The notes beneath the pieces are model-generated. The model made no database searches. It saw nothing but the letters and a program-made list of their open reading frames with translations, and had not been told where the DNA came from. Of a DNA stretch of 64,000 bases, positions 1-6,876 are shown in pieces; position 1 is the first letter of the stretch; the number at the start of each line of letters is the position of its first letter. Both the position numbers and the translations under genes were made by a program. Location: the NCBI RefSeq assembly GCF_022846255.1, contig NZ_AP025682.1; one strand, 5' to 3'. The stretch comes from Escherichia coli (GTDB taxonomy: Bacteria > Pseudomonadota > Gammaproteobacteria > Enterobacterales > Enterobacteriaceae).

Positions 1-2101
1 CCAGTTTCTGTACCGAGACATTCAGCCGTTCGAAGAACAAGCCCCAGGTTTGACCGGAGACGCGCAGCGCCTTGAAGCGCCCGGTTTCCTGGCGGGTGCT
101 GGAAAGACGCAGTTCAATACACTCAGAAACCAGTTGCTGCACGCGAGTACGGATTAACCCGCGCAGATGCTGGCTATAACAGAAGACTTCCACACTATCT
201 GGCGGTGCGGCGTCCTGATGCATTTTGCCGAGAATGGTTTTCAGGGCTTCAATCATCGACTGCTCACCGTTGAAGTGCAGCGTACGCACTTCGTTCCACG
301 AGTTGCGATACAGCAGGTCAACGCTACCCACCAGGCAATTTTGATTCTCGCCAAAGCTGAAGACATCCAGCTTACGGAAATCAAAATGCACCACCTGATT
401 GCGGAAGGCTGCCGTCGGGTCATATTCCAGGTTAACGATAATCGCCAGATGGCGGATCTCACACGGGCTGTAGAGCGCCTTCGGTGTCGGTGCAGGTAAG
501 CGCAGCGGGAAATGGTGCGACACGTCGGCGACCATCTCCTGCAACTTAGGCAAATCGACAATGCCGTTACCTTTAATATACAAGCGGGTGCGCGAGGTCA
601 GCAGGCCGTTAAACCATGCCCACGCCACCAGTTTATTCAGGTAACGGTTATATTCCAGCGGCTGATGGCTGATGATCGACTCAATATTTGGCGCGCGGTT
701 ATACAGATACCAACCTGAACGGTTAGCCCGGCCCGGCGGCACATAAATAAAGGTCAGATTCGGTTCCGAGAGATCGGGTGAAATCTGCGGGTTTACCAGC
801 GTCACTTTACCCGGTAACGCTTCAAACGCGGCGTACAGTTTACGTGTCAGAACACCGATATCCTGCGGGCTGGCGGAAACGCTAAGGTTATTGCGACGCG
901 CAAAGCGGATCAGATTGCGGTAGCTCTGCATCATCGCGTCGAGCAACTCGTTGTGCGCCTCACGCACCTGATCAATCTTCCAGTTAGCGCGATTATCAAG
1001 CATTGCCAGACGAGAATCGTCCCATTCCCACTCTTTCACCAACTGGCTTAACACTTCACGACGCCAGCCTACGCAGGCGCGTTCACGGCTGAGTTTTTCG
1101 CAAACTTTTAAATAGAAGCATCGGCGAACTAAATCCAGACGAGTAAAATCTTCGATCGCCGTCAGATATTCAGTGACGCGCTCCAGCATCATGCAATACG
1201 GGTCGAGACCAAACGACACTATTTCGCCGTCGTGCAAACGCTGTTTGATATCTTTCGCCAGCAGACGTGGGTTCGGGTATTCCCAGGAATAGGCTTCCAG
1301 CAGCAGTGTTTTCAGCACCGCTTTGTATGGGGAATCGATACTCTTGTAGAGCTGCCAAAGGCTGGCACCAAAGTACTCTTCAGCAGAAAGCGAGCTTAAG
1401 CCACCAAGATCCAGCCATTCATTTGGCGTCAACACGCCCTGCGCGTAAAGCGTCATCACATAGTCGTCGTAATGCTCTTCTTCGTCGCACGGCACCATAT
1501 TCCACAGAATACGCTTACCGGCGAGACGCACGGCGGTACGATAAAATTCGTCAAGCAGCAGTATATGCTGGGTGGAGCCACAATCTTCGCCCCCCAGGCT
1601 GCCGCTTTCATTATGACGGAAGCGGTTTTCATCAATCAGGAAGAAGCTGACTTCCACACCCAGCGAGGCGGCCCAGCTTTCCAGCAGACTACATTTACGT
1701 TGTAGCAACTGGCGCTCTTCGCTATCGAGCCAGGATTGATGACAGACCCAGATATCCAGGTCAGAGGAACAACTTTGCCCTACGGACGAGGTGCTGCCCA
1801 TGGTGTATACACCAGTAATTGGAAGCTCACCTTTCGGTGGGTCCTGTACTGACATTCCACGATACAGTTCAAGCTCGTTCAGGTAGTGGCGTTGAGTTTC
1901 ATCAGGCGTGTAAAGGCAAATGCCTTTGGGAACGTTACCATCAAGGTAACCCGGCATTAGCGGATGGTGATAGTGCAACAATGTCGGCAGTAGACTGTAG
2001 ACCTGTTGGAATGCAGGCCCCATAGCAGCAAGCGCGCGATCCACACGCAATTGATTTATGGCATCCAGTCTCTGTTTCAGAGTCTCAATATAGAGGTACA
2101 A
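1..2101 (-). CDS. cyaA: Adenylate cyclase CyaA, 5' portion (N-terminal ~700 codons; 3' end lies beyond window start); TTG start codon
   Basis: Minus-strand translation from TTG at 2101 reads [13 protein letters not shown]...; no in-frame stop to position 1 (no closed ORF in this frame in the track); divergent from hemC as in E. coli. Confidence 0.88.
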
Positions 2102-2487
2102 GACGTATCGCCTGATTTGCTACCCGTCATGACTGTGATTCCGCCAACATCAACGGTAACACGCGGCATTCGGGATATTTCGTATGTCAAAGGTAACCGT
2201 TACCACTTTTCGCGCCTGGTTTTTTTAGTTTCACGACGAAAAAATGGTCTAAAACGTGATCAATTTAACACCTTGCTGATTGACCGTAAAGAAAGATGCG
2301 CTACATACAAGTGTAGCACCGTTTATTCTCTGTAAATTCCTTATTACGAAGGCTCAAAGCGCCTGTCAGGATCCACTGCCAGACCTCATTTTACGGTTTG
2401 CGCAGGCGTCTACGTTTCACCACAACACTGACATCGCTCTGGCAAGGATGTTAGGATGGACCACGGATGATAATGACGGTAACAAGC
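2102..2487. promoter_or_regulatory. cyaA-hemC divergent intergenic region (cyaA and hemC promoters expected here)
   Basis: 386-bp noncoding gap between divergent cyaA and hemC starts; individual promoter elements not resolved by eye. Confidence 0.4.
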
Positions 2488-3429
2488 ATGTTAGACAATG
2501 TTTTAAGAATTGCCACACGCCAAAGCCCACTTGCACTCTGGCAGGCACACTATGTCAAAGACAAGTTGATGGCGAGCCATCCGGGCCTGGTCGTTGAACT
2601 GGTACCGATGGTGACGCGCGGCGATGTGATTCTTGATACGCCGCTGGCGAAAGTAGGCGGAAAAGGCTTATTTGTGAAAGAGCTGGAAGTCGCGCTCCTC
2701 GAAAATCGCGCCGATATCGCCGTACATTCAATGAAAGATGTGCCGGTTGAATTCCCGCAAGGTCTGGGGCTGGTCACCATTTGCAAGCGCGAAGATCCCC
2801 GCGATGCCTTTGTATCCAACACCTATGACAGTCTGGATGCGTTACCGGCAGGCAGTATCGTCGGGACGTCCAGTTTACGTCGCCAGTGCCAACTGGCTGA
2901 ACGCCGCCCGGATCTGATTATCCGCTCCCTGCGCGGCAACGTCGGCACTCGTCTGAGCAAACTGGATAACGGCGAATATGATGCCATCATTCTTGCCGTA
3001 GCCGGACTAAAACGTTTAGGTCTGGAGTCCCGCATTCGCGCCGCGTTGCCACCCGAGATTTCTCTTCCGGCGGTAGGGCAAGGTGCGGTGGGCATTGAAT
3101 GCCGCCTTGATGATGCACGCACTCGCGAGCTGCTCGCCGCGCTGAATCACCACGAAACTGCACTGCGCGTTACCGCCGAACGCGCCATGAATACCCGTCT
3201 CGAAGGCGGATGTCAGGTGCCAATTGGTAGCTACGCCGAGCTTATTGATGGCGAAATCTGGCTGCGTGCGTTGGTTGGCGCGCCGGACGGTTCGCAGATT
3301 ATTCGCGGTGAACGCCGCGGTGCGCCGCAAGATGCCGAACAAATGGGGATTTCGCTGGCAGAAGAGCTACTGAATAACGGCGCGCGCGAGATCCTCGCTG
3401 AAGTCTATAACGGAGACGCCCCGGCATGA
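2488..3429 (+). CDS. hemC: Porphobilinogen deaminase (hydroxymethylbilane synthase)
   Basis: ORF 2467..3429; product matches HemC from [19 protein letters not shown] (third in-frame ATG at 2488), 313 aa. Confidence 0.95.
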
Positions 3430-4166
3430 GTATCCTGGTCACCCGTCCGTCTCCCGCAGGAGAAGAGTTAGTGAGCCGTCTGCGCACACTGGGGCAGGTG
3501 GCCTGGCATTTTCCGCTGATTGAGTTTTCTCCGGGTCGACAATTACCGCAACTTGCTGATCAACTGGCAGCGCTGGGAGAGAGCGATCTGTTGTTTGCCC
3601 TCTCGCAACACGCGGTTGCTTTTGCCCAATCACAGCTGCATCAGCAAGATCGTAAATGGCCCCGACTACCTACTTATTTCGCCATTGGACGCACCACCGC
3701 GCTGGCACTACATACCGTAAGCGGACAGAAGATTCTCTACCCGCAGGATCGGGAAATCAGCGAAGTCTTGCTACAATTACCTGAATTACAAAATATTGCG
3801 GGCAAACGTGCGCTGATATTACGTGGCAATGGCGGTCGTGAGCTAATTAGGGATTCCCTGACGGCGCGCGGTGCTGAGGTCACTTTTTGTGAATGTTATC
3901 AACGATGCGCAATCCATTACGATGGTGCAGAAGAAGCGATGCGCTGGCAATCCCGCGAGGTGACGACGGTCGTTGTTACCAGCGGTGAAATGTTGCAGCA
4001 ACTCTGGTCGCTGATCCCACAATGGTATCGTGAGCACTGGTTACTACGCTGTCGACTATTAGTCGTCAGTGAGCGTTTGGCGAAACTCGCCCGGGAACTG
4101 GGCTGGCAAGACATTAAGGTCGCCGATAACGCTGATAACGATGCGCTTTTACGGGCATTACAATAA
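3426..4166 (+). CDS. hemD: Uroporphyrinogen-III synthase
   Basis: 246-aa ORF; ATGA start/stop overlap with hemC; matches HemD. Confidence 0.95.
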
Positions 4167-4187: not shown

Positions 4188-5423
4188 ATGACGGAACAAG
4201 AAAAAACCTCCGCCGTGGTTGAAGAGACCAGGGAGGCCGTGGACACCACGTCACAACCTGTCGCAACAGAAAAAAAGAGTAAGAACAATACCGCATTGAT
4301 TCTCAGCGCGGTGGCTATCGCTATTGCTCTGGCGGCGGGCGTCGGTTTGTATGGCTGGGGTAAACAACAGGCCGTCAATCAGACTGCCACCAGCGATGCC
4401 CTGGCTAACCAACTTACGGCACTGCAAAAAGCCCAGGAGAGCCAAAAAGCCGAGCTGGAAGGCATTATCAAGCAACAAGCTGTACAGCTTGAGCAGGCGA
4501 ATCGTCAGCAAGAAACGCTGGCAAAACAGCTGGATGAAGTCCAACAAAAGGTCGCCACCATTTCCGGCAGCGATGCTAAAACCTGGCTGCTGGCCCAGGC
4601 CGATTTTCTGGTGAAACTCGCCGGACGGAAGCTGTGGAGCGATCAGGACGTCACGACCGCTGCAGCGTTGCTGAAAAGTGCAGACGCCAGCCTGGCGGAT
4701 ATGAATGACCCGAGTCTGATTACCGTTCGCCGGGCAATTACCGATGATATCGCCAGCCTTTCTGCGGTATCGCAGGTGGATTATGACGGTATCATCCTTA
4801 AGCTTAATCAGCTTTCAAATCAGGTAGATAATCTGCGTCTGGCCGATAATGACAGCGATGGTTCGCCGATGGATTCCGACGGTGAAGAGCTTTCCAGTTC
4901 CATCAGCGAATGGCGTATCAATCTGCAAAAAAGCTGGCAGAACTTTATGGACAACTTCATTACGATTCGCCGTCGTGATGACACCGCCGTACCGCTGTTA
5001 GCGCCAAATCAGGATATCTATCTGCGCGAAAATATTCGCTCTCGCCTGCTGGTCGCAGCACAAGCTGTACCGCGTCACCAGGAAGAGACTTATCGCCAAG
5101 CGCTGGAGAACGTCTCCACCTGGGTACGTGCTTACTACGATACTGATGATGCCACCACCAAAGCGTTCCTCGACGAGGTGGACCAGTTAAGCCAGCAAAA
5201 TATCTCGATGGATCTTCCGGAAACCCTGCAAAGCCAGGCGATGCTGGAAAAATTGATGCAGACCCGCGTGCGTAACCTGCTGGCACAACCGGCAGCAGGG
5301 ACAACGGAAGCTAAACCTGCACCTGCACCTGCACCTGCACCTGCACCTGCACCTGCACCTGCACCTGCACCTGCACCTGCACCGCAAGCTGATGCTCCGG
5401 CAGCCGCGCCGCAAGGAGAATAA
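4188..5423 (+). CDS. hemX: HemX (uroporphyrinogen-III methyltransferase homolog / membrane protein) with C-terminal (Pro-Ala)11 tract
   Basis: 411-aa ORF following hemD; N-terminal TM segment, coiled-coil-like Q/A-rich region, C-terminal PAPAPA repeat. Confidence 0.9.
5316..5381 (+). repeat. Perfect tandem hexanucleotide repeat (CCTGCA)x11 inside hemX 3' end
   Basis: Directly visible: cctgca repeated 11 times, in frame, encoding (PA)11. Confidence 0.97.
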
Positions 5424-5425
5424 CC

Positions 5426-6622
5426 ATGCTAAAAGTGTTATTGCTCTTTGTGTTGCTGATTGCGGGGATCGTGGTTGGCCCGATGATTGCCGGCCATCAG
5501 GGTTACGTGCTGATCCAGACCGACAACTACAATATTGAAACTAGCGTCACGGGCCTCGCGATTATTTTGATTCTGGCGATGGTAGTGCTGTTTGCCATTG
5601 AGTGGCTACTGCGGCGAATCTTCCGCACAGGCGCGCACACCCGTGGGTGGTTTGTCGGACGTAAGCGTCGCCGTGCACGTAAGCAGACCGAACAGGCGCT
5701 GCTGAAACTGGCGGAAGGCGATTATCAGCAAGTTGAAAAGTTGATGGCGAAAAATGCCGATCACGCTGAACAACCGGTGGTGAACTATCTACTGGCAGCC
5801 GAAGCCGCGCAACAACGTGGTGATGAAGCACGCGCCAACCAACATCTGGAACGCGCAGCGGAGCTGGCCGGCAATGACACCATTCCGGTAGAAATCACCC
5901 GTGTACGTCTGCAACTGGCCCGTAATGAAAACCATGCAGCACGTCACGGCGTGGATAAGCTGCTGGAAGTTACGCCACGCCATCCGGAAGTATTACGTCT
6001 GGCGGAACAGGCGTATATCCGCACTGGTGCATGGAGTTCGCTGCTGGATATCATCCCATCAATGGCGAAAGCCCATGTTGGTGATGAAGAACATCGTGCA
6101 ATGCTGGAACAACAGGCATGGATTGGCCTGATGGATCAGGCGCGTGCCGATAACGGTAGTGAAGGTTTGCGTAACTGGTGGAAAAACCAAAGCCGGAAAA
6201 CGCGTCATCAGGTGGCCTTGCAGGTGGCAATGGCGGAACATCTTATTGAGTGTGACGATCATGATACTGCCCAGCAAATTATCATCGATGGCCTGAAACG
6301 CCAGTATGACGATCGCCTGCTGCTGCCGATCCCGCGTCTGAAAACCAATAACCCGGAACAGCTGGAAAAAGTGCTGCGCCAACAGATCAAAAACGTGGGC
6401 GATCGCCCGCTGTTGTGGAGCACACTGGGTCAGTCGCTGATGAAACACGGAGAATGGCAGGAAGCATCGCTCGCCTTCCGCGCAGCGCTGAAACAACGTC
6501 CGGACGCCTACGATTACGCATGGCTTGCCGACGCGCTGGACAGACTGCACAAGCCGGAAGAAGCCGCAGCGATGCGTCGCGACGGTTTGATGTTAACGTT
6601 GCAGAACAACCCGCCACAGTAG
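5426..6622 (+). CDS. hemY: HemY (TPR-containing inner-membrane protein of hem operon)
   Basis: 398-aa ORF starting 3 nt after hemX stop; matches HemY. Confidence 0.95.
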   Translation: MLKVLLLFVLLIAGIVVGPMIAGHQGYVLIQTDNYNIETSVTGLAIILILAMVVLFAIEWLLRRIFRTGAHTRGWFVGRKRRRARKQTEQALLKLAEGDYQQVEKLMAKNADHAEQPVVNYLLAAEAAQQRGDEARANQHLERAAELAGNDTIPVEITRVRLQLARNENHAARHGVDKLLEVTPRHPEVLRLAEQAYIRTGAWSSLLDIIPSMAKAHVGDEEHRAMLEQQAWIGLMDQARADNGSEGLRNWWKNQSRKTRHQVALQVAMAEHLIECDDHDTAQQIIIDGLKRQYDDRLLLPIPRLKTNNPEQLEKVLRQQIKNVGDRPLLWSTLGQSLMKHGEWQEASLAFRAALKQRPDAYDYAWLADALDRLHKPEEAAAMRRDGLMLTLQNNPPQ

Positions 6623-6669: not shown

Positions 6670-6876
6670 AAAAAAACGCCTGCTCTTATTACGGAGCAGG
6701 CGTTAAAACAGGTCTGTATGACAACAAGTGGGTGCTTCACTCAACGTTGTGTCCATGGTGTCTGATGAGGCATAAGCGACATCTGTCAGTGGACGATAAG
6801 CACCGTAAACGGCTCTGCGTCATTCCGGAGTTTATGAGGCACTAAGGCGAACATAAGAGATGGAATGAGCATCTAC
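6670..6876 (-). ncRNA. glmZ: Small RNA GlmZ (207 nt) with intrinsic terminator at its 3' end
   Basis: Minus strand reads GUAGAUGCUCAUUCCAUCUCUUAUGUUCGCC...AACGCCUGCUCCGUAAUAAGAGCAGGCGUUUUUUU, matching recalled GlmZ; located between hemY and aslA as in E. coli. Confidence 0.85.

What the first reader, a model, noticed from the sequence alone, without database searches (positions are those of the whole stretch)
5316..5381. Perfect (CCTGCA)x11 tandem repeat encoding a (Pro-Ala)11 tract at the hemX C-terminus
Eleven uninterrupted in-frame hexamer copies are visible. This is a classic substrate for replication slippage in 6-bp steps, which would change the length of a flexible Pro-Ala linker without frameshifting. 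The ORF here is 411 codons, whereas I recall HemX of K-12 as about 393 aa. If that recollection is right, the difference (18 aa) equals nine repeat units, consistent with strain-to-strain copy-number variation. I cannot verify the K-12 length.
Basis: partly seen in the sequence, partly recalled or inferred. Interest (0 to 1): 0.4.

Follow-up and report, generated by a model that had tools for sequence, protein, structure and literature searches.

The report
Known E. coli typing repeat in hemX
The eleven-copy CCTGCA repeat near the end of hemX is real and varies between E. coli strains, but it is already known as typing marker CVN014/EHC-1, so the finding is correct and ordinary.

Summary
A perfect (CCTGCA)x11 lies at window 5316-5381, in frame in hemX (4188-5423, 411 aa), and encodes (Pro-Ala)11 at residues 377-398.

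- K-12 HemX is 393 aa and has 2 units, which accounts for exactly the 18-aa difference.
- In two rank-stratified samples of 60 complete E. coli genomes each, alleles run from 2 to 21 units. The median is 6 and Nei diversity is about 0.89. The longest allele seen has 23 units. One strain has lost the tract through an 81-bp in-frame deletion. Every allele keeps the reading frame.
- Five O157:H7 genomes carry 5, 7, 9, 12 and 17 units but differ by only 0-1 SNP across 2,435 bp of flank. The tract therefore changes far faster than point substitution, as replication slippage predicts.

The locus is already known. The published primers for VNTR CVN014 (generic E. coli MLVA, where it is called the most variable locus) and for EHC-1 (Japanese EHEC MLVA) both bracket the tract. 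The CVN014 sizing formula returns 11.

One correction: the tract is not an interdomain linker. It lies in a predicted disordered Pro/Ala-rich C-terminal tail with only 13 residues after it.

Novelty: already known. Interest: low.

The parts
5316..5381 (+). VNTR: perfect (CCTGCA)x11, encoding (Pro-Ala)11 at HemX residues 377-398. This is MLVA locus CVN014 / EHC-1.
4188..5423 (+). hemX CDS, 411 aa. It has a hydrophobic stretch at about residues 36-58 (inferred membrane anchor), a long helix at 60-128, the HemX domain (PF04375) at 130-363 and a Pro/Ala-rich tail at 367-411.
5286..5420 (+). Coding region of the C-terminal tail (residues 367-411). It is Pro/Ala-rich, has pLDDT below 50 and no predicted secondary structure. 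It is conserved in composition but not in sequence across Enterobacteriaceae.
5292..5311 (+). Binding site of the CVN014 'R' primer GCAGCRGGGACAACGGAAGC (exact match).
5445..5468 (-). Binding site of the CVN014 'F' primer TCCCCGCAATCAGCAAMACAAAGA (exact match, inside the start of hemY). The amplicon 5292-5468 is 177 bp, and (177-111)/6 = 11.
5268..5287 (+). Binding site of the EHC-1 forward primer GTGCGTAACCTGCTGGCACA (exact match).
5391..5408 (-). Binding site of the EHC-1 reverse primer CGCGGCTGCCGGAGTATC. It has 1 mismatch in this strain and matches exactly in the O157 and K-12 flank haplotype.
5413..5418 (+). hemY Shine-Dalgarno AAGGAG, embedded in the last hemX codons (CAA GGA GAA TAA). 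This explains why the terminal Q-G-E is invariant across genera.
5426..6622 (+). hemY CDS, which starts 2 nt after the hemX stop codon.

Best explanation
The tract is a coding hexanucleotide microsatellite (VNTR) that gains and loses whole CCTGCA units by replication slippage. Each unit is two codons (CCT-GCA, Pro-Ala), so every step keeps hemX in frame. It also leaves the hemX stop codon and the embedded hemY ribosome-binding site untouched. The only product change is the length of a disordered Pro/Ala-rich tail at the extreme C-terminus of the membrane-anchored protein HemX. That tail tolerates any length from complete loss to at least 46 repeat residues, so alleles drift nearly neutrally. 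The resulting high polymorphism is what typing laboratories use as CVN014 / EHC-1.

Shown here: the repeat, its reading frame, the allelic series, fast change within one clone, identity with the published loci, and the position of the tract in a predicted unstructured tail.

Inferred: slippage as the molecular mechanism, near-neutrality, and the periplasmic location of the tail. The location rests on an N-in signal-anchor topology that I recall from database annotation and did not test.
For: The allelic series moves in exact 6-bp steps, and the units are perfect with identical codons in every genome read. Five O157:H7 genomes carry 5, 7, 9, 12 and 17 units with 0-1 SNP in 2,435 bp of flank. 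Both flank haplotypes carry short and long arrays: the K-12/O157 type has 2-21 units and the B2 type has 3-11. This indicates recurrent local expansion and contraction rather than allele exchange. The single-stranded repeat folds into an interrupted hairpin through its TGCA palindromes (-12.2 kcal/mol, z = -4.9), which could stabilise slipped intermediates. Sampled K-12 derivatives and most other 447-bp alleles have 2 units, consistent with short arrays being stable. Tolerance is shown by NCTC11023, which lacks the tract entirely through an 81-bp in-frame deletion, and by a 23-unit allele. The tail lies outside the HemX domain and is predicted disordered. Published MLVA studies describe CVN014 as present in all isolates and the most variable locus, including variation within ST131.
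Against: No mutation rate was measured here, so slippage is inferred from pattern alone. All 78 Enterobacteriaceae species examined keep a 21-56 aa tail that is 41-74% Pro+Ala. The tail as a whole may therefore be under selection for composition, and strict neutrality of its length is not proven. The allele distribution is not flat: there is a peak at 2 units and a broad mode at 5-8. This could reflect population structure, mutational bias or weak selection. The samples are rank-stratified from BLAST output rather than random, and database genomes over-represent clinical clones.
Confidence: 0.88

Rival explanations
1. Tail length is functional. The Pro-Ala tract would act as a semi-rigid spacer whose length tunes HemX activity or reach in the cell envelope, for example within the reported YhcB/ZapG-HemX association. 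The VNTR would then be an adaptive tuning knob kept variable by selection.
For: A Pro/Ala-rich tail is conserved in composition in all 78 species examined. The same CCTGCA unit has expanded both in Escherichia species and in a separate Citrobacter clade with 10-15 units. HemX has a conserved two-hybrid interaction with the envelope and division protein YhcB in three species (PMC8163987).
Against: Nothing folded or conserved follows the tract. The only invariant residues after it (Q-G-E) are accounted for by the hemY Shine-Dalgarno sequence in the DNA. One wild strain lacks the tract altogether, and K-12 grows normally with 2 units. No link between tract length and host or source was apparent in the rows listed, though I did not analyse this formally. 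Most genera encode the tail with mixed codons that cannot slip.
Confidence: 0.07
2. Repeat number regulates the downstream gene. The length of the repeat in the mRNA would alter hemY translation or hemCDXY transcript stability, because the tract ends only 44 nt before the hemY start codon.
For: The tract is close to the hemY ribosome-binding site, and the hemX stop and hemY start are coupled (TAA-CC-ATG). The repeat RNA and DNA are self-complementary.
Against: In partition-function folding of the mRNA segment with 0-23 units, the mean unpaired probability of the SD-to-AUG region stays at 0.17 for every length. The repeat pairs with itself and not with the RBS. Ribosomes translating hemX would also unwind the region.
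Confidence: 0.03
3. The length differences are assembly or sequencing artefacts in a low-complexity region rather than real biological variation.
For: Tandem repeats are a known source of assembly error.
Against: The tract is 12-138 bp long, which is shorter than typical reads. The genomes compared are complete assemblies. All 120 sampled alleles differ by whole in-frame units. Independent PCR fragment sizing in many laboratories finds the same kind of variation at the same primer sites.
Confidence: 0.02

Closest known systems
CVN014, a VNTR locus of the generic E. coli/Shigella MLVA scheme (Lindstedt et al. 2007; primers as tabulated in PMC8143711 and PMC8261245)
   Same: It is the same locus. 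Both published primers match the window once each, exactly, on either side of the tract (5292-5311 + and 5445-5468 -). The unit is 6 bp, and the published formula (product - 111)/6 gives 11 for the 177-bp in-silico amplicon. The literature describes CVN014 as present in all isolates and the most polymorphic locus, which matches the 2-23 unit range found here.
   Different: Nothing substantive differs. None of the open-access papers searched that mention CVN014 names hemX as the host gene, so the link between gene and locus is stated explicitly here.
EHC-1, a VNTR locus of the Japanese EHEC O157/O26/O111 MLVA system (Izumiya et al. 2010; primers in PMC10062581 S5 Table)
   Same: It is the same tract. 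The forward primer matches 5268-5287 exactly, and the reverse primer matches 5391-5408 with one mismatch in this strain. The reverse primer is exact in the O157 and K-12 haplotype. The published O157 EHC-1 alleles (about 3-13) overlap the O157 counts found here.
   Different: The primers sit closer to the repeat than the CVN014 primers, so the amplicon offset differs. The one mismatch lies four bases from the 3' end of the reverse primer (its T pairs with the A/G polymorphism) and could affect amplification in B2-type strains.
Other in-frame 6-bp coding VNTRs used for typing enteric bacteria (for example Salmonella Typhimurium STTR5 and STTR6, or E. coli O157-3, -9, -17, -19, -25, -37)
   Same: They share the hexanucleotide unit, stepwise variation that keeps the frame, and fast change within clones.
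   Different: They are different genes and loci. The O157-19 primers do not correspond to this site.
Phase-variable contingency loci (simple-sequence repeats in Haemophilus, Neisseria and Campylobacter surface genes)
   Same: They share the mutational mechanism of slipped-strand mispairing at a short tandem repeat.
   Different: Contingency repeats switch genes on and off by frameshift or promoter spacing. Here the unit is two codons, and all 120 sampled alleles plus the deletion allele stay in frame, so there is no on/off switching.
Pro-Ala-rich segments in bacterial envelope and multidomain proteins (the OmpA hinge, TonB, the E2 lipoyl-domain linkers of pyruvate dehydrogenase); recalled from general knowledge, not tested
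   Same: They share the alternating Pro/Ala composition, which is expected to give an extended, non-globular segment.
   Different: Those segments connect two folded or functional parts. Here only 13 non-conserved residues follow, so the tract is a tail rather than a linker.

Membership tests
VNTR locus CVN014 (generic E. coli MLVA) | Flanked by the published CVN014 primer pair | tested here: met
   Both degenerate primers match exactly once each in the 64-kb window, in convergent orientation around the tract. None is expected by chance.
VNTR locus CVN014 (generic E. coli MLVA) | 6-bp repeat unit with a 111-bp non-repeat offset in the amplicon | tested here: met
   The in-silico amplicon is 177 bp, and 177 - 111 = 66 = 11 x 6.
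VNTR locus CVN014 (generic E. coli MLVA) | Copy number is polymorphic among E. coli strains, and the locus is present in essentially all strains | tested here: met
   The locus was found in 5425 of 5426 complete genomes. Alleles run from 2 to 23 units plus one deletion allele, and Nei diversity is about 0.89 in 119 sampled genomes.
VNTR locus EHC-1 (Izumiya EHEC MLVA) | Flanked by the published EHC-1 primer pair | tested here: met
   The forward primer is exact at 5268-5287. The reverse primer at 5391-5408 has 1 mismatch in this strain. The O157 and K-12 flanks carry the exact GATACTCC.
HemX family (Pfam PF04375 / NCBIfam PRK10920) | Full-length match to the family profile above the curated cut-off | tested here: met
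   PF04375 scores 360.9 bits against a cut-off of 25.9, over residues 130-363. PRK10920 scores 720 bits against a cut-off of 313, over residues 1-411. The gene lies in the hemC-hemD-hemX-hemY order.
HemX family (Pfam PF04375 / NCBIfam PRK10920) | Uroporphyrinogen-III C-methyltransferase activity, as the annotation name claims | not testable with these tools
   The name goes back to a 1988 suggestion, and a 2008 review calls HemX poorly characterised. No PDB sequence matched the protein at E <= 0.01. The name should be treated as unverified.
Phase-variable contingency locus | Changes in repeat number shift the reading frame or promoter spacing, switching expression on and off | tested here: not met
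   The unit is 6 bp, which is 2 codons. All 120 sampled spans differ from the reference by multiples of 3, and every fetched allele has an intact hemX ORF.
Interdomain Pro-Ala linker | Connects two folded domains | tested here: not met
   Only 13 residues follow the tract. Residues 367-411 have pLDDT below 50 and no secondary structure. The downstream residues are not conserved apart from the SD-encoded QGE.

The most novel reading that the evidence does not exclude
The most novel reading not excluded is that selection acts on the length of the HemX tail. Composition is conserved across 78 Enterobacteriaceae species, and the same CCTGCA unit has expanded in parallel in Escherichia and in one Citrobacter clade. 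Both facts could mean that tail length modulates a still-unknown envelope function of HemX, for example through its conserved YhcB/ZapG interaction. CVN014 would then be a selectable quantitative tuning knob rather than a neutral marker.
Probability: 0.06. Interest if true: 0.45.

Novelty: already known. Interest (0 to 1): 0.1.

Why it matters
The finding matters mainly as a sanity check. A reader working from sequence alone picked out the most polymorphic simple repeat of the E. coli core genome and predicted its behaviour correctly.

Three practical points follow:
- The hemX length differences between annotated E. coli genomes (384-435 aa here) are real VNTR alleles, not annotation errors.
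- CVN014 and EHC-1 alleles can be read directly from assemblies as (hemX length in aa - 389)/2.
- The one-base polymorphism under the EHC-1 reverse primer in B2-type strains is worth knowing for assay design.

Nothing here challenges current understanding.

Tried and rejected
(1) Literature searches for 'hemX' with 'tandem repeat', 'VNTR' or 'MLVA' found only a Salmonella paper in which hemX appears as an unrelated SNP. The link to known loci had to be made through primer sequences.

(2) I suspected from memory that O157-19 / TR7 was this locus. I rejected that because the O157-19 primers in PMC10062581 S5 do not correspond to hemX or hemY sequence.

(3) I tested whether repeat number could tune hemY translation by folding the mRNA with 0-23 units. 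RBS accessibility did not change.

(4) I considered whether the conserved terminal 'PQGE' is a peptide motif presented by a Pro-Ala spacer. I rejected this because only Q-G-E is conserved, and those codons (CAA GGA GAA/G) contain the hemY Shine-Dalgarno sequence.

(5) No PDB chain matched HemX by sequence. I did not use the AlphaFold model (mean pLDDT 59) for a fold search because its confidence is too low for meaningful matches.

(6) A full census of all 5,425 genomes was not possible because the tool lists at most 60 rows per search. Two rank-stratified samples and one search for the longest alleles stand in for it.

(7) Strain PAR looked like the source of the window because it is 100% identical over 501 bp. 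Over the whole window it is only 98.5% identical, so the source strain remains unidentified.

Full report
OBSERVATION. The window reads AAA (CCTGCA)x11 CCGCAAGCT... at 5316-5381. Tandem Repeats Finder reports 5315-5383, period 6, 11.5 copies, 100% matches, score 138. The next best array in the 64 kb scores 60. The longest perfect period-6 run is 69 bp, against a mean of 14 and a maximum of 18 in 200 dinucleotide-preserving shuffles. The tract lies in frame in the ORF 4188..5423 (+), 411 aa, which ends ...TEAK(PA)11[13 protein letters not shown]. That ORF is HemX: Pfam PF04375, E 4e-108, residues 130-363; NCBIfam PRK10920, E 5e-217. It sits in the usual hemC-hemD-hemX-hemY arrangement.

A 501-bp query around the tract hits 5425 of 5426 complete E. 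coli genomes. The length of the matched stretch differs between genomes in 6-bp steps. I fetched 16 loci and counted units directly:

- K-12 derivative MGY has 2 units and a 393-aa HemX.
- ATCC 11775 has 3 units.
- VTB97379v has 3 units plus a variant CCTACA unit.
- R14 has 5, SA186 has 6, CFT073 has 8 and AVS0717 has 10.
- PAR has 11, the same as the window.
- 05-3629 has 21 (431 aa) and 2017.20.01CC has 23 (435 aa).
- Five O157:H7 genomes have 5, 7, 9, 12 and 17.
- NCTC11023 (384 aa) has lost the tract and the next five codons through an 81-bp in-frame deletion. Its junction reads GAAGCTAAACC|GGCAGCC.

I took two independent rank-stratified samples of 60 genomes each, using queries with 11 and with 0 units (tabulated). 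Together they give 2-21 units, a median of 6 and Nei diversity of about 0.89. There is a peak at 2 units (21 of 119) and a broad mode at 5-8. The 11-unit allele makes up about 7%. Every span differs from the reference by a multiple of 3. A query with 30 units brought up the longest alleles, 14-23 units.

MECHANISM. The five O157:H7 loci carry five different alleles but differ by only 0-1 SNP across 2,435 bp of flank. Both flank haplotypes carry short and long arrays: the K-12/O157 type has 2-21 units and the B2 type has 3-11. Length change is therefore local, recurrent and much faster than substitution. This is the signature of replication slippage rather than allele exchange.

All units use the same two codons (CCT GCA), which indicates recent expansion at the DNA level. 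The single-stranded tract folds into a hairpin of 4-bp TGCA stems interrupted by C-C mismatches (-12.2 kcal/mol; shuffles -5.7 +/- 1.3; z = -4.9). Such a structure could stabilise slipped intermediates. Slippage itself is inferred, not measured.

WHERE THE TRACT SITS IN THE PROTEIN. The HemX domain ends at residue 363. An AlphaFold2 model built on a 79-sequence alignment places the last helix at 348-366. It gives pLDDT below 50 and no secondary structure for residues 367-411. The tract (377-398) is followed by only 13 residues. It is therefore part of a disordered C-terminal tail and not a linker between domains.

The N-terminal hydrophobic stretch (about residues 36-58) is preceded by KKSKNN. 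That suggests an N-in signal anchor, which would put the tail in the periplasm. This agrees with my recollection of database annotation, but I did not test it here.

HemX function is poorly characterised. The methyltransferase name is an old suggestion. A conserved two-hybrid interaction with YhcB/ZapG has been reported. No PDB sequence matched the protein.

OTHER SPECIES. In one genome per species across 78 Enterobacteriaceae, HemX always ends with a tail of 21-56 residues that runs from 'L[LM]AQ[PS]' to 'QGE' (a few add a final Q). The tail is 41-74% Pro+Ala but variable in sequence.

Long perfect CCTGCA arrays occur only in two groups. In Escherichia, E. albertii has 6 units, Escherichia sp. 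E1V33 and E. coli SCPM-O-B-8794 have 7, and Escherichia sp. MOD1-EC7003 has 2. In one Citrobacter clade, NCU1 has 10, R56 has 14 and Awk 4 has 15.

Klebsiella, Silvania, Pluralibacter and others encode similar AP-rich stretches with mixed codons, which gives slippage no substrate.

The invariant terminal Q-G-E is encoded by CAA GGA GAA/G TAA, which contains the hemY Shine-Dalgarno sequence AAGGAG (window 5413-5418). The conservation after the tract is therefore explained at the DNA level.

ALTERNATIVE: REGULATION OF hemY. I folded the mRNA from 116 nt upstream of the tract to codon 25 of hemY, with 0-23 units. The mean unpaired probability over the SD-to-AUG region was 0.17 in every case. The repeat pairs with itself. 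This gives no support for a regulatory role.

COMPARISON WITH WHAT IS KNOWN. The primers published for VNTR CVN014 of the generic E. coli MLVA scheme are F TCCCCGCAATCAGCAAMACAAAGA and R GCAGCRGGGACAACGGAAGC (PMC8143711 and PMC8261245, after Lindstedt et al. 2007). Each matches the window exactly once, at 5445-5468 (-) and 5292-5311 (+). The in-silico product is 177 bp, and the published formula (product - 111)/6 gives 11.

The EHC-1 primers of the Japanese EHEC MLVA system (PMC10062581 S5 Table) match at 5268-5287 (+, exact) and 5391-5408 (-, one mismatch in this strain).

MLVA papers describe CVN014 as present in all isolates and as the most variable locus. It varies even within ST131, with reported alleles from 2 to 11. 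This agrees with the genome survey here.

VERDICT. Novelty is already known and interest is low. The residual open question is whether tail length has any phenotypic effect. I give that about 6% probability. It would be only moderately interesting if true.

Noticed in passing
L027, L031, L034 (Citrobacter sp. NCU1, Awk 4, R56), hemX 3' end, about locus 1690-1800: The same CCTGCA unit is expanded to 10-15 perfect copies at the orthologous position of hemX in one Citrobacter clade. Other Citrobacter species have no array there. This looks like a parallel expansion and may be a usable VNTR in that clade.
   Followed up: partly
L003 (E. coli NCTC11023), locus about 1200-1245: This strain has an 81-bp in-frame deletion that removes the whole Pro-Ala tract plus the next five codons (junction AAACC|GGCAGCC). 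It would presumably give a shortened or null CVN014/EHC-1 product, and it shows the tract is dispensable.
   Followed up: yes
window 5391-5408: The A/G polymorphism (GATGCTCC in the window and B2-type strains, GATACTCC in K-12 and O157) lies under the EHC-1 reverse primer, four bases from its 3' end. It could reduce amplification in non-EHEC lineages.
   Followed up: partly
window 6670-6876 (-): The GlmZ (SraJ) sRNA is a full-length Rfam match at 218 bits. It lies in the 679-bp hemY-aslA spacer, and its intrinsic terminator is at 6704-6675. This is a known feature in its usual place.
   Followed up: yes
window 4188-5423 and annotated records: RefSeq names HemX 'uroporphyrinogen-III C-methyltransferase' in every genome. 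The protein is a membrane-anchored helical protein with no PDB sequence match, and a review calls it poorly characterised. The product name is probably a legacy misannotation.
   Followed up: partly
window 41988-42024: TRF reports a period-15 repeat with 2.5 copies (TAATCACCACCACGC on the + strand). It maps to the position of the ilvL leader peptide of the ilvGMEDA attenuator in the colinear strain PAR. It reflects the run of Val/Ile codons and is ordinary.
   Followed up: partly
window 1-64000: The window is colinear with E. coli PAR from cyaA to viaA. It covers hemCDXY, aslAB, four tRNAs, the wec/rff ECA cluster, rho, the ilv genes, an rRNA operon and the rbs genes. Identity is only 98.5%, so PAR is not the source strain. 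By the PAR annotation, hemCDXY lies on the opposite strand to the rRNA operon.
   Followed up: partly
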